The position numbers are program-made. This document shows, piece after piece, positions 54,001-58,319 of a stretch of DNA of 64,000 nt. The stretch's first letter is position 1. Every line of letters starts with the position of its first letter. The stretch lies in NCBI RefSeq assembly GCF_988243305.1, contig NZ_OZ547136.1; one strand, given 5' to 3'.

Positions 54001-57000
54001 CACGTTGTATGGGCAGGCGACCATGCAGTAACGGCAGCCAGTGCACACATCTTTGTCGTAATGGACAATGCCGGTTTTCGGATCTTTTTTCAGCGCAGAG
54101 ACCGGACACACGGAGACACAGTTCGGATCGACGCAGTGCATACACTGTTTCTTAATGTACGCGTAGCCGTTCTCTTCCTGGTCTTTGTTGACACCCGTGC
54201 CGCTGGTCCACACCTGAATAATGTTATTGGTATACGGCGACAGTTTGTCGTTGTTCGACCAGGTCTGTTCCCCTTGCGGGTTACGTTCAGGGAAGTTGAT
54301 ATCCTGACACTTGGTGACGCAAGCCTGGCAGCCTACGCACAAGGTCGAGTCGTACAACATCCCCAGCGATCCCGGAATTGGCGGGCGGTTTTCAGCAGCC
54401 GCATGACTGACAGACGGCAACGCGCCCGTCAGCAATGCCCCGCAGGAGGCTGCTTTAATAAAATTACGTCTGTTCACGGTTATTCTCCCCGTGAGTCAGC
54501 GTTATCTTTCTTTTGCTGACGACCCAGTTCACGCACCGCCATCACGCTGACACCGGCAACCAGCCCAACCACACCGCCGAGCAAACCAATAGCGCCCGCA
54601 GAGACGTTGCCGCCTTCTTTAGCGTTAACATCCGGTTTCTGTGAACGCGGAGTCTGGTTTTCGACGTTGGCAAGCTGATGGATGCCTTTATGGAAGCCGA
54701 TACCTTCTTCGTTACAGCCATAGCACGGGTGACCAATCGCCACCGGCCACACACCGCCAACATCGCAGAATTGCAGCGTTGAGCAGTTGCCGTAAGTTTC
54801 TGGCCCTTTACAGCCGAGGTGGTACAGGCACCAGCCTTCGCGGTGGCCTTCATCACCGAACTCTTTGGCAAAACGACCAGCATCGAAGTGCGGGCGACGT
54901 TCGCAGTGTTCGTGAATCAGACGGCCATAGGCGAAGGTCGGACGGTTTTTGTCATCCAGTTTCGGCGGCTTGCCGTAAGTGATGATGTGCGCAACGGTCG
55001 CGAGGAAGTTGTGCGGGTTCGGCGGGCAGCCAGGAATGTTGATTACAGTTTTGCCTGGCAGAACTTCTTGCAGGCTGACAGCGCCAGTTGGGTTAACTCC
55101 AGCTGCGGCAACACCGCCCCACGCAGAGCAGGAACCGATAGCGATAATGGCTGCTGCGCCTTCCGCCGCTTTGCGGATGTGATCCACAATCGGCTCACCG
55201 GCAACCATGCAATAAATACCATTATCTTTTAATGGGATGGAACCATCCACCACTAACACATACTGCCCTTTGTACTTCTCGAGAGCGTTATGTTTGTTCT
55301 CTTCGACCTGATGACCGAAGGCGGCGGAAAGCACTTCGTGATACTCCAGAGAGATAGTCTCCAGCACGAGGTTTTCTACCGTTGGATGCGTTGCACGAAG
55401 CAGAGATTCCGTACAACCGGTACACTCCTGCGCGCCAATCCAGATAACTGGCGGACGCTGCGGGTTAGTAACCGATTCGGCCATCTCTGCAGCGGCTTTG
55501 CTACTTAACCCCATGGTGGCGGCTAATGCTGCACAAAGCTTCATGAAATCACGACGGTTAATGCCGTGAGAATGGATGAGGGTGTTATCTCCAGTCATTT
55601 ATAGTTATTCCGTTGCGAAGACCTGGCATATATTTTGCCTCAATCGCAAAATCAATAATGCGATCGATGCGCCATTTACCACACATTTATTATGGTTATC
55701 GATATCATGATACTGCGGCGGGGCGCTAAAACGAAGGGAAGAAGCATTAGTGTAATTAATTAAAGCAAGATAATACGTATGTTTGATCAATTTTCGAGGC
55801 GATAACCGGCCATAAAAAAGCGCAACGTAGAACAGGAATTATTCTCACGAAAGAAATCCATTACCATCTCTTTATCCAGTCCATAGCGGCGCGTCAGAAT
55901 ACCCGCTTCCCAGGCGCTAAGCTGGCGATCTCCGGTCTTTTCGTACATCCGGTGTGAGTAGCCTAATACAAAACCGCGTTTATAATCGGCACAGTATTTT
56001 GTCACATTAACCGCACTGTCGGCATGCGTTGCTTTTAATCCCGCCATTAAGCCTTTACCAAAATGGTTATTCATCGTTCACCTCATTCGATATATATTGC
56101 CATATATAGCGATATTTTAGGCAAAGAACGACTTTTGCGCACGCTATTTTTTCATGCTTGTTTAAGACGTAATCCCGTAAGAGATAAACCTATCAGGAGA
56201 GATATTTATCGAACCATTTCAGCGTCCTTTGCCAGGCAAGATCGGCGGCAGATTTGTCATAACGGGGCGTGGAATCATTATGGAATCCGTGATTAACCCC
56301 CGGATAGATATACGCCTCATAGACCTTATTATTGGCTTTCAACGCCGCCTCGTAAGCAGGCCAGCCCTCGTTGATTCGGGTGTCCAGTTCCGCGTAGTGG
56401 AGTAGTAAAGGCGCTTCAATCTTCGCCACATCGGCGGTGGGTGCCTGTCGACCATAAAACGGCACCGCGCAGGCCAGTTCCGGATACGCGACAGCCGCCG
56501 CGTTCGATACGCCACCGCCATAGCAAAATCCGGTAATACCCACTTTGCCTGTCGCTAGCGGATAGCGTTGCATAAACTCAATTGCGGCAAAGAAATCATT
56601 CATCAGTTTGGTTGGATCAACCTGCTGTTGCAGCTCACGACCTTTATCATCATTACCCGGATAACCTCCAACGGAACTTAAGCCGTCAGGTGCCAGGGCG
56701 ATATACCCCGCCTTCGCCACTCGCCGTGCCACATCTTCGATATACGGATTCAGTCCACGATTCTCATGCACCACCACCACGGCTGGCGTTTTGCCGCTCA
56801 TCTTTGCGGGCTTCACCAGATAACCCCGTACCTCGCCGTGACCATTTGGTGAAGGATACGTGATGTACTCAGCAACAATCTCCGGGTCGGTAAACTCTAC
56901 CTGAGTCGCCAGCGCATAATTTGGCTTGAGCAAATCAAACAACGCTAATGCCGTCATCCCGCCTACCGCATACTTCGCCGCAAGGTTGAGGAACTCACGT

Positions 57001-58319
57001 TTCGAGATTTTCCCGTGAGCGTAATAGTCGTAGTAATCCAGCAACTCTTGTGGGAAATCTTTGGCGGTTAAACGCGGCATCGTTGCACTCCTCAACTGGT
57101 GTTTTTTTAAGCAAAGCATAAGCGCGTGTTTTTGCCCAGTTTTTCGTCACTCTGTGAGCCAGACTACGGGATACGCGCTGATGAATCGCTAAACTAGAAA
57201 CATTGTTTCGAAATTGAATGGTGGAAAGGAGAGGTCATGGTCTGGTTAGCGAATCCCGAGCGTTACGGGCAGATGCAGTACCGTTATTGCGGAAAAAGCG
57301 GTTTACGCCTGCCCGCGTTATCGCTCGGTTTATGGCACAATTTCGGTCACGTTAACGCGCTGGAATCACAGCGTGCGATCCTGCGTAAAGCGTTTGATTT
57401 AGGCATTACGCACTTTGATTTAGCCAACAATTACGGGCCGCCTCCAGGAAGCGCAGAAGAGAACTTTGGTCGCCTGCTGCGGGAGGATTTTGCCGCTTAT
57501 CGCGATGAACTGATTATCTCTACCAAGGCTGGCTACGATATGTGGCCCGGCCCTTACGGCTCTGGCGGTTCACGTAAATACCTGCTCGCCAGCCTCGACC
57601 AAAGCCTGAAGCGTATGGGGCTTGAGTATGTCGATATCTTTTACTCTCATCGCGTCGATGAAAATACGCCGATGGAAGAAACCGCCTCTGCGCTGGCTCA
57701 TGCGGTACAAAGCGGTAAGGCGCTTTATGTCGGGATCTCCTCTTACTCGCCAGAGCGGACGCAAAAAATGGTCGAGTTGCTGCGCGAGTGGAAAATTCCG
57801 CTGTTAATTCATCAACCTTCGTACAATTTACTGAACCGCTGGGTGGATAAAAGCGGCCTGCTGGATACCCTGCAACATAACGGCGTGGGCTGCATTGCCT
57901 TTACTCCTCTGGCTCAGGGATTGCTGACCGGAAAATATCTCAACGGTATTCCGCAAGATTCACGGATGCATCGTGAAGGGAATAAAGTTCGTGGTCTGAC
58001 GCCGAAAATGCTCACCGAAGCCAACCTCAACAGCCTGCGGTTATTGAATGAAATGGCACAGCAGCGTGGACAATCAATGGCGCAAATGGCGTTAAGCTGG
58101 TTGCTGAAAGATGAACGCGTCACCTCGGTGTTGATTGGTGCCAGCCGTCCGGAACAACTGGAAGAGAACGTGCAGGCGTTAAACAACCTGGCATTCAGTG
58201 CCGAGGAGCTGGCGCAGATTGATCAGCATATCGCCGATGGCGAGCTGAATCTGTGGCAGGCGTCTTCCGATAAATGACCTGTTAATAACGGGCGCGAGAA
58301 CCGCGCCCGAATCAGATCA

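What the first reader, a model, noticed from the sequence alone, without database searches (positions are those of the whole stretch)
56193..57119. Intact dienelactone hydrolase gene yghX
Seen in sequence: one uninterrupted 308-aa ORF with a GFCYGG nucleophile elbow. From memory, K-12 annotates this locus as a frameshifted pseudogene (yghX/yghY), so this would be the ancestral functional state. Minor strain-typing interest only.
Basis: partly seen in the sequence, partly recalled or inferred. Interest (0 to 1): 0.2.

Follow-up and report, generated by a model that had tools for sequence, protein, structure and literature searches.

The report
Intact yghX hydrolase gene, common allele
The window carries the unbroken form of yghX, a cysteine hydrolase gene that two small deletions have broken in laboratory E. 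coli K-12. The unbroken form is the common, ancestral, already annotated and already crystallised version, so the finding is correct but ordinary.

Summary
The uninterrupted 308-codon ORF at 56193-57119 is on the minus strand. The real start is almost certainly the ATG at 57080, giving 295 aa. It has a GAGGAG ribosome-binding site, and it is the start used by RefSeq and by the detected K-12 small protein YqhI.

The protein is a full-length YghX family hydrolase (NCBIfam 586 bits, cut-off 460) with a dienelactone hydrolase (DLH) fold and a Cys186-Asp233-His264 triad. It is 98% identical to PDB 4ZV9 from E. coli O157:H7.

The interpretation also holds. K-12 MG1655 differs by a 2-bp deletion (codon 37) and a 1-bp deletion (codon 157), annotated as pseudogene b4658 plus yqhI. 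Among 5,426 complete E. coli genomes, about 22-23% carry the K-12 lesions and about 78% are intact at the second site. Some strains have only the 2-bp deletion, so that deletion came first. Orthologues in Citrobacter, Enterobacter and Pseudescherichia are full length and under strong purifying selection, so intact is ancestral.

One side lead is open. The conserved N-terminal 58 residues look like a twin-arginine (Tat) export signal (KR here, RR in most relatives), which suggests a periplasmic enzyme.

The substrate is unknown. Novelty: already known. Interest: low.

The parts
56193..57080 (-). yghX coding sequence, 295 codons plus stop (YghX family hydrolase)
   Evidence: ORF. RefSeq CDS of 888 nt in the identical strain NY1601. 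NCBIfam NF041440 586 bits covering 1-292/292. Pfam DLH 1.2e-47.
57081..57119 (-). 13 extra in-frame codons of the maximal ORF (MLCLKKHQLRSAT), probably not translated
   Evidence: No Shine-Dalgarno sequence before the ATG at 57119. The NCBIfam and Pfam matches begin at residues 14-16 of the 308-aa ORF. RefSeq and K-12 yqhI start at the downstream ATG.
57088..57093 (-). GAGGAG ribosome-binding site, 7 nt upstream of the ATG at 57080
   Evidence: Read directly from the sequence.
56907..57080 (-). N-terminal 58 residues: 'YqhI-like' module and putative Tat-type export signal (n-region helix LLDYYDYYAH, S26-K-R-E-F-L31, G/A-rich stretch, A56-L-A58 before T59)
   Evidence: Pfam PF23678 1.7e-21. Family alignment. 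Motif counts of 70 RR and 12 KR among 93 representatives. Lipobox-bearing relatives. The PDB construct starts at about residue 60.
56514..56531 (-). Nucleophile elbow G-F-C-Y-G-G; catalytic Cys186 codon at 56523-56525
   Evidence: The Cys aligns with position 123 of Pseudomonas dienelactone hydrolase, which is Ser in the C123S variant 4U2C. C186 is nearly invariant in the family.
56382..56384 (-). Catalytic Asp233 codon
   Evidence: Invariant D233 in alignment A2. It aligns with the Asp of ClcD 'GGQDHFV'.
56289..56291 (-). Catalytic His264 codon
   Evidence: Nearly invariant H264. It aligns with the His of ClcD 'GAGHSF'.
56971..56972 (-). The 2 bp (TA/AT in AAGTATGCG) that are deleted in K-12 and in 1,251 of 5,426 complete genomes
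   Evidence: Alignment A1. Junction searches.
56611..56611 (-). The 1 bp (one C of CCAACCAAA) that is deleted in K-12 and in 1,199 of 5,426 complete genomes
   Evidence: Alignment A1. Junction searches.
57081..57236 (.). Intergenic region between the divergent genes yghX and gpr
   Evidence: ORF map. The divergent gpr-yghX arrangement is conserved in K-12, Citrobacter koseri and Enterobacter mori. The promoter scan found nothing above chance.

Best explanation
This is the intact, ancestral allele of the known chromosomal gene yghX, on the minus strand between gpr and yghW-hybO. It encodes a 295-aa alpha/beta hydrolase of the dienelactone hydrolase (DLH) family. By analogy with ClcD, Cys186 in the G-x-C-x-G elbow attacks an ester, lactone or thioester carbonyl. 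His264 and Asp233 activate it, an acyl-cysteine intermediate forms, and water then hydrolyses it. The natural substrate is unknown. The first 58 residues most likely act as a twin-arginine-type (Tat) export signal. If so, the folded enzyme would be delivered to the periplasm and cut after Ala-Leu-Ala58. E. coli K-12 and its relatives lost the gene in two steps: a 2-bp deletion in codon 37, then a 1-bp deletion in codon 157. That left a pseudogene whose 5' end is still translated as the 47-aa protein YqhI. Shown here: gene intactness, family membership, fold, conservation of the triad, the K-12 lesions and their frequency, and purifying selection. Inferred: the chemistry, export and cleavage.
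For: The ORF and motif are present. Family scores are NCBIfam YghX 586 bits against a 460 cut-off and Pfam DLH 1.2e-47. The protein is 98% identical to crystal structure 4ZV9, and the AF2 model fits that structure at 0.7 A rmsd. The triad aligns with ClcD, and D233, C186 and H264 are invariant or nearly so in 33 diverse relatives. The K-12 deletions are seen. Population counts: site 1 deleted in 1,251 genomes and intact in 3,336; site 2 deleted in 1,199 and intact in 4,221. Wild isolates carry the frameshifted allele. Strains AGR4587 and TUM17668 carry an intermediate allele with only the 2-bp deletion. Full-length orthologues occur in other genera with conserved gpr synteny. pN is 0.06-0.085 against pS 0.72-0.78. 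For export, RR-x-F-L is present in 70 of 93 family representatives and KR in 12. The motif P-x-[YF]-A-x-A follows in 56 of 93. Distant members carry the same module followed by a lipobox Cys and an ~85-aa disordered P/T/A linker. YqhI was detected by epitope tagging (PMC6001520).
Against: No activity is known. Purified EcoDLH (4ZV9) showed no phosphotriesterase activity in a panel of DLH enzymes (bioRxiv 10.1101/2025.10.30.685675). Its ester and lactone substrates were not reported in the passages I read. Against export, this protein has KR, not RR. Its longest uncharged stretch after the motif is only 12 residues and is bounded by Lys36 and Asp47. The N-terminal 58 codons are more conserved than the rest of the gene (pN 0.037-0.06), which is unusual for a cleaved signal. 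AF2 models the region at pLDDT 91-95 as three short helices. The genome counts come from a collection rich in K-12 laboratory derivatives, and 'intact at both sites' does not exclude other lesions elsewhere in the gene.
Confidence: 0.9

Rival explanations
1. YghX is a cytoplasmic enzyme. Its N-terminal 58 residues are not a signal peptide but a permanent three-helix cap or regulatory subdomain on the hydrolase core.
For: AF2 gives pLDDT 91-95 and three defined helices (11-21, 27-37, 44-51) with pTM 0.93. The N-terminal codons are under stronger purifying selection than the catalytic domain. A motif (L/F)-Y-D-x-Y-x-H is conserved upstream of the RR. This protein has KR instead of RR and a short, charge-interrupted hydrophobic stretch.
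Against: RR-x-F-L plus a G/A/S-rich stretch plus A-x-A is the family consensus. Relatives P0200, P0210 and P0226 place a lipobox Cys directly after the module, followed by a long disordered linker. That arrangement only makes sense for an exported lipoprotein. AF2 models the module just as confidently in P0226 (pLDDT 87-96), so high pLDDT does not discriminate between the two readings. The crystallised construct lacks the module and still folds.
Confidence: 0.3
2. YghX is a true carboxymethylenebutenolidase (EC 3.1.1.45) that acts in chlorocatechol or aromatic degradation, as KEGG-style annotation implies.
For: It belongs to Pfam DLH and has the same triad and fold as ClcD. Pathway tools place yghX in chlorobenzene, fluorobenzoate and toluene degradation maps (PMC9746237).
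Against: It is only about 25% identical to ClcD. None of the loci examined has neighbouring catechol-pathway genes. The neighbours are gpr, yghW, hyb and chemoreceptor genes, or unrelated genes in distant relatives. From general knowledge, the DLH family is functionally broad.
Confidence: 0.05
3. YghX is a polymerase for short-chain protein-conjugated poly-(R)-3-hydroxybutyrate (cPHB). This was proposed from its G-x-C-x-G box and its similarity to PHA synthases.
For: A review (PMC3709699) cites a structure-based prediction naming ysgA, ycjY and yghX as candidate cPHB polymerases. Most cPHB polymerase activity was reported in the periplasm, which would fit an exported YghX.
Against: This is a prediction only. 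K-12, in which cPHB was studied, has yghX as a pseudogene. No PHA-synthase family appears among the Pfam or NCBIfam hits above cut-off; the only related hit is a weak sub-threshold one to a PHA depolymerase domain.
Confidence: 0.03
4. The intact ORF here is a secondary restoration, and the K-12-type frameshifted state is ancestral in E. coli.
For: None found.
Against: The intact allele is in about 78% of genomes. Other genera have full-length orthologues with the same residues at both sites. Restoration would need two exact independent re-insertions.
Confidence: 0.01

Closest known systems
[quoted passage not shown]
   Same: Same gene. 98% identity over residues 59-294, the AF2 model fits at 0.7 A rmsd, and the triad is the same. 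RefSeq annotates an identical 888-nt CDS in strain NY1601.
   Different: A few substitutions relative to 4ZV9 (for example V68F, S137N, L175Q, Y229F), none at catalytic residues. The crystal construct lacks the N-terminal ~59 residues.
E. coli K-12 yghX pseudogene (b4658) plus small protein YqhI (b4755)
   Same: Same locus and same neighbours (hybO, yghW, gpr, yqhA), about 98% nucleotide identity, and the same start codon.
   Different: K-12 lacks 2 bp in codon 37 and 1 bp in codon 157. As a result only a 47-aa product (36 native and 11 frameshifted residues) is made.
Pseudomonas knackmussii dienelactone hydrolase ClcD (PDB 1DIN and variants)
   Same: Alpha/beta hydrolase fold, G-x-C-x-G elbow, Cys-Asp-His triad, and the conserved Glu after strand 1 (HE106NRG vs HEILG).
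   Different: About 25% identity. ClcD has no N-terminal extension and is cytoplasmic, within a chlorocatechol operon. YghX has the 58-residue YqhI-like module and no pathway context.
Klebsiella pneumoniae putative dienelactone hydrolase (PDB 3F67)
   Same: DLH fold with a GFCWGG elbow. It is the closest solved homologue after 4ZV9 (E=1.5e-23).
   Different: 28% identity. The match starts only at residue 82, so it is a different DLH subfamily without the YqhI-like N-terminus.
Twin-arginine (Tat) signal peptides, including natural KR variants and Tat lipoproteins
   Same: S/T-R-R-x-F-L consensus in most family members, a weakly hydrophobic G/A-rich h-region, a basic residue before the A-x-A site, and lipobox variants in distant members.
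   Different: There is a long, strongly conserved acidic and aromatic n-region helix. This protein has KR and a 12-residue uncharged core. Tat dependence has not been tested.

Membership tests
YghX family hydrolase (NCBIfam NF041440) | Whole-protein HMM score above the curated cut-off (460 bits) with end-to-end coverage | tested here: met
   586.4 bits, profile positions 1-292 of 292.
YghX family hydrolase (NCBIfam NF041440) | Orthologous chromosomal position (divergent from gpr, upstream of yghW-hybO) | tested here: met
   The window ORF map matches K-12 and NY1601. gpr adjacency is also seen in Citrobacter and Enterobacter.
Dienelactone hydrolase family (Pfam PF01738) | HMM match above the gathering score over the whole domain | tested here: met
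   162.7 bits against a cut-off of 21, profile 1-217 of 217.
Dienelactone hydrolase family (Pfam PF01738) | Cys-Asp-His catalytic triad at the positions of ClcD C123, D171 and H202 | tested here: met
   C186, D233 and H264 align with ClcD and are invariant or nearly invariant in 33 relatives.
Dienelactone hydrolase family (Pfam PF01738) | Alpha/beta hydrolase fold | tested here: met
   AF2 pLDDT 96.6. Foldseek gives 4ZV9 at rmsd 0.7 A and 1DIN at TM 0.85.
Carboxymethylenebutenolidase, EC 3.1.1.45 | Hydrolysis of dienelactone to maleylacetate | not testable with these tools
   I found no enzymatic data for this reaction. The only assay I found was a negative phosphotriesterase result.
Tat (twin-arginine) signal peptide | Consecutive arginines in an S/T-R-R-x-F-L-K motif | tested here: not met
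   This protein has S-K-R-E-F-L. 70 of 93 family representatives have RR and 12 have KR. From general knowledge, natural KR Tat signals exist, so this lowers the claim but does not exclude Tat export.
Tat (twin-arginine) signal peptide | Uncharged, weakly hydrophobic h-region of about 13 or more residues after the motif | tested here: inconclusive
   12 uncharged residues (Y37-F48) between K36 and D47/D49, with a maximum Kyte-Doolittle 15-residue mean of 1.55. The family median is 15.
Tat (twin-arginine) signal peptide | Signal peptidase I site (A-x-A), or a lipobox, after the h-region | tested here: met
   A56-L-A58 before T59. P-x-[YF]-A-x-A occurs in 56 of 93 relatives. P0200, P0210 and P0226 have a lipobox.
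Tat (twin-arginine) signal peptide | tatABC-dependent export and cleavage | not testable with these tools
   Needs cell fractionation in tat+ and tat- strains.

The most novel reading that the evidence does not exclude
The conserved N-terminal 'YqhI-like' module would be a distinct, structured class of Tat export signal. It has an acidic and aromatic n-region helix, then RR/KR-x-F-L, then a short h-region. AF2 models it confidently even when a disordered linker separates it from the enzyme. Under this reading it docks on a partner (the folded hydrolase or a dedicated factor) as a folding checkpoint before export. The K-12 'small protein' YqhI would then be the orphaned, still-translated remnant of that signal.
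Probability: 0.12. Interest if true: 0.4.

Novelty: already known. Interest (0 to 1): 0.07.

Why it matters
It matters little for discovery. The gene, its family, its structure and the K-12 pseudogene are all on record.

There are three practical points:
- yghX is widely used as a 'neutral pseudogene' integration site in K-12-derived production strains (several papers). In about three quarters of E. coli genomes that site is a live gene under purifying selection.
- The K-12 small protein YqhI is best read as the translated stump of this gene's N-terminal module, not as an independent gene.
- The two-step decay (2-bp deletion, then 1-bp deletion) gives a simple lineage marker.

Tried and rejected
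- The promoter and terminator consensus scan of 55600-57400 gave no more sites than shuffled sequence, so I make no regulatory claim.
- The Rfam and tRNA scans found nothing at the locus.
- Gene-neighbourhood look-ups for distant relatives (P0122, P0126, P0140) showed no conserved partner gene, so context gives no substrate clue.
- Literature searches for DLH together with twin-arginine or Tat substrates returned nothing relevant.
- A preprint that mentions 'yghX overlapping modA' concerns another locus and was set aside.
- I first read the high AF2 confidence for residues 1-58 as evidence against a signal peptide. I dropped that reading after the control model of the lipoprotein-type relative P0226 showed the same confidence.
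- dS between genera is saturated (pS about 0.75), so I report only pN against pS, not a numeric dN/dS.
- My first regular expression for the RR motif was faulty. It was replaced by the counts.
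Full report
**Observation.** The ORF listing finds a single uninterrupted ORF at 56193..57119, 308 aa with an ATG start, on the minus strand. 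Its translation contains GFCYGG. The 308 aa is the longest possible reading. The ATG at 57080 (codon 14) is preceded at 7 nt by GAGGAG (57088-57093). The Pfam and NCBIfam matches begin at residues 14-16 of the long ORF. RefSeq annotates an 888-nt yghX CDS in strain NY1601, which is 100% identical over the 1,141-nt query. The K-12 small protein YqhI, detected by chromosomal epitope tagging, starts at the homologous ATG (PMC6001520). I therefore take the gene as 56193..57080, 295 aa.

**Identity.** The protein scores 586 bits against NCBIfam NF041440 'YghX family hydrolase' (cut-off 460), end to end. It scores 1.2e-47 against Pfam DLH (PF01738). A separate match covers its first ~36 residues: PF23678 'YqhI-like', 1.7e-21. 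[quoted passage not shown] Sakai' (PMC8533429). An AlphaFold2 model built on 33 diverse relatives (pLDDT 96.6) superposes on 4ZV9 at 0.7 A, and on Pseudomonas dienelactone hydrolase 1DIN at TM 0.85.

In the HMMER alignment to ClcD variants, Cys186, Asp233 and His264 fall on the ClcD triad positions. D233 is invariant, and C186 and H264 are nearly invariant, in the family alignment. The neighbours are hybO, yghW (DUF2623), gpr (divergent) and yqhA, exactly as in K-12.

**Comparison with K-12.** The pairwise alignment shows about 98% identity with two gaps in K-12:
- 2 bp are missing at window 56971-56972 (AAGTATGCG becomes AAGTGCG, codon 37).
- 1 bp is missing at window 56611 (CCAACCAAA becomes CCAACAAA, codon 157).

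K-12 annotates pseudogene yghX (b4658) and yqhI (b4755). Three-frame translation of K-12 shows three otherwise stop-free pieces. The first piece ends as the 47-aa YqhI, with 36 native and 11 frameshifted residues.

**Frequency of each state.** I ran megablast with 44-46-nt queries centred on each junction. The other allele cannot provide a 28-nt seed, so each query matches only its own allele.

| Site | K-12 deletion allele | Intact allele |
|---|---|---|
| Site 1 (2 bp) | 1,251 of 5,426 complete genomes | 3,336 |
| Site 2 (1 bp) | 1,199 | 4,221 |

At site 1 the remaining ~840 genomes match neither query, presumably because of nearby SNPs. At site 2 the two counts together account for 5,420 of the 5,425 genomes that have the locus.

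The deletion alleles are not limited to laboratory strains. A stool isolate from Pakistan, a bovine isolate from New Zealand and a UK rectal-swab isolate all carry both lesions and are flagged 'frameshifted'. Strains AGR4587 (stream water) and TUM17668 (urine) carry the 2-bp deletion with site 2 intact. This agrees with the surplus of 52 genomes at site 1, and it implies that the 2-bp deletion came first.

Two caveats apply. The collection is enriched in K-12 derivatives. Being intact at both sites does not exclude other lesions elsewhere in the gene.

**Ancestry and selection.** Full-length orthologues (294-298 aa, 86-93% identity, 100% coverage) occur in Citrobacter koseri, Pseudescherichia, Enterobacter, Kosakonia and Leclercia. 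The divergent gpr neighbour is kept in Citrobacter and Enterobacter. Against three of these orthologues, pN is 0.06-0.085 while pS is 0.72-0.78, which is saturated. The intact form is therefore ancestral and is maintained by selection. The K-12 form is a recent loss.

**Probable mechanism.** From established knowledge of ClcD-type DLH enzymes, the thiolate of Cys186 forms an acyl-enzyme with an ester or lactone substrate, and water then releases it. That chemistry is inferred here, not shown. The only biochemical result I found is negative. Purified 'EcoDLH' (4ZV9) had no detectable phosphotriesterase activity in a 12-enzyme DLH panel (bioRxiv 10.1101/2025.10.30.685675). An older structure-based suggestion that yghX might be a cPHB polymerase is untested (PMC3709699). 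Neighbourhoods of distant relatives show no conserved partner gene.

**The N-terminal 58 residues.** This is the one feature not settled by existing annotation. The sequence reads MPRLTAKDFPQELLDYYDYYAHGKIS-KREFL-NLAAKYAVGGMTALALFDLLKPNYALA|TQ.

Evidence for a Tat-type export signal:
- Among 93 of the 150 best 50%-identity representatives in which the motif can be located, 70 have RR and 12 have KR.
- 56 of the 93 have P-x-[YF]-A-x-A downstream.
- Relatives P0200, P0210 and P0226 carry the same module followed directly by a lipobox (ILAAC or LLAAC) and a long P/T/A-rich linker. AF2 models that linker as disordered. This is the signature of an exported lipoprotein.
- The crystallised construct begins at about residue 60.

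Evidence against:
- This protein has KR, not RR.
- It has only 12 uncharged residues in the core.
- The n-region motif (L/F)-Y-D-x-Y-x-H is strongly conserved.
- The first 58 codons evolve more slowly than the rest of the gene.
- AF2 models the region at pLDDT 91-95 as three helices.

The AF2 point is weakened by a control: the module is modelled just as confidently in the lipoprotein-type relative P0226. I put Tat export of the family at roughly 0.6 and of the E. coli KR protein at roughly 0.5. The alternative is a permanent helical cap on a cytoplasmic enzyme.

**Verdict.** The gene, its family, its structure and the K-12 pseudogene are all already known, and the intact allele is the majority allele. 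Interest is low. The only mildly open matters are the nature of the YqhI-like N-terminal module and the substrate.

Noticed in passing
window 914-3007: Two insertion-sequence remnants abut here. One is an Rfam ALIL pseudoknot (IS3-family frameshift signal, 914-1030) with an rve-integrase ORF at 956-1846 (+). The other is a DDE_Tnp_1 transposase ORF at 1728-2945 (-) with an Rfam RNA-OUT (IS10-type antisense RNA) at 2938-3007. The two ORFs overlap, which suggests that one IS inserted into the other.
   Followed up: partly
window 5282-21243 (minus strand): A complete-looking type II secretion gene set lies next to a 1,523-aa M60-peptidase ORF (YghJ/SslE-like, 16672-21243). It includes GspL (5282-6460), GspF (9440-10663), GspE (10663-12156) and the GspD secretin (12156-14216). 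K-12 annotates only yghD, yghE, yghF, yghG, pppA and yghJ here, with no GspD, E or F. This is a second and larger K-12 loss in the same window.
   Followed up: partly
window about 32700-40450: Between yghO-like (31241-32383) and yghQ-like (40449-41798), the window has about 8 kb with six or seven ORFs of 187-583 aa. K-12 has only an IS5 (insH9) between yghO and yghQ. The IS5 in K-12 therefore appears to have replaced a gene block that this strain still has. The contents were not examined.
   Followed up: no
window 23481-23702 (+): Rfam C0719 sRNA, 299 bits, full length, between the glcA-like and glcB-like ORFs.
   Followed up: no
L013 and L014 (E. coli AGR4587 and TUM17668), yghX at 915-1800: An intermediate pseudogene allele: the 2-bp deletion is present and the 1-bp deletion is absent (886-nt CDS, flagged frameshifted). 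This shows the order of the two K-12 lesions.
   Followed up: yes
proteins P0200, P0210, P0226 (distant YghX-family members): The YqhI-like N-terminal module is followed by a lipobox Cys and a 50-90-residue P/T/A-rich linker before the hydrolase domain. AF2 still models the module at pLDDT 87-96, while the linker is below 50.
   Followed up: partly
window 56907-57080 (minus strand) vs K-12 yqhI: The K-12 'small protein' YqhI (47 aa) consists of the first 36 residues of YghX plus 11 frameshifted residues. It is the translated stump of the pseudogene, not an independent gene. A published domain hit of YqhI to a glycosyltransferase superfamily (PMC6001520) is not reproduced by the Pfam scan of the full-length protein.
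   Followed up: partly
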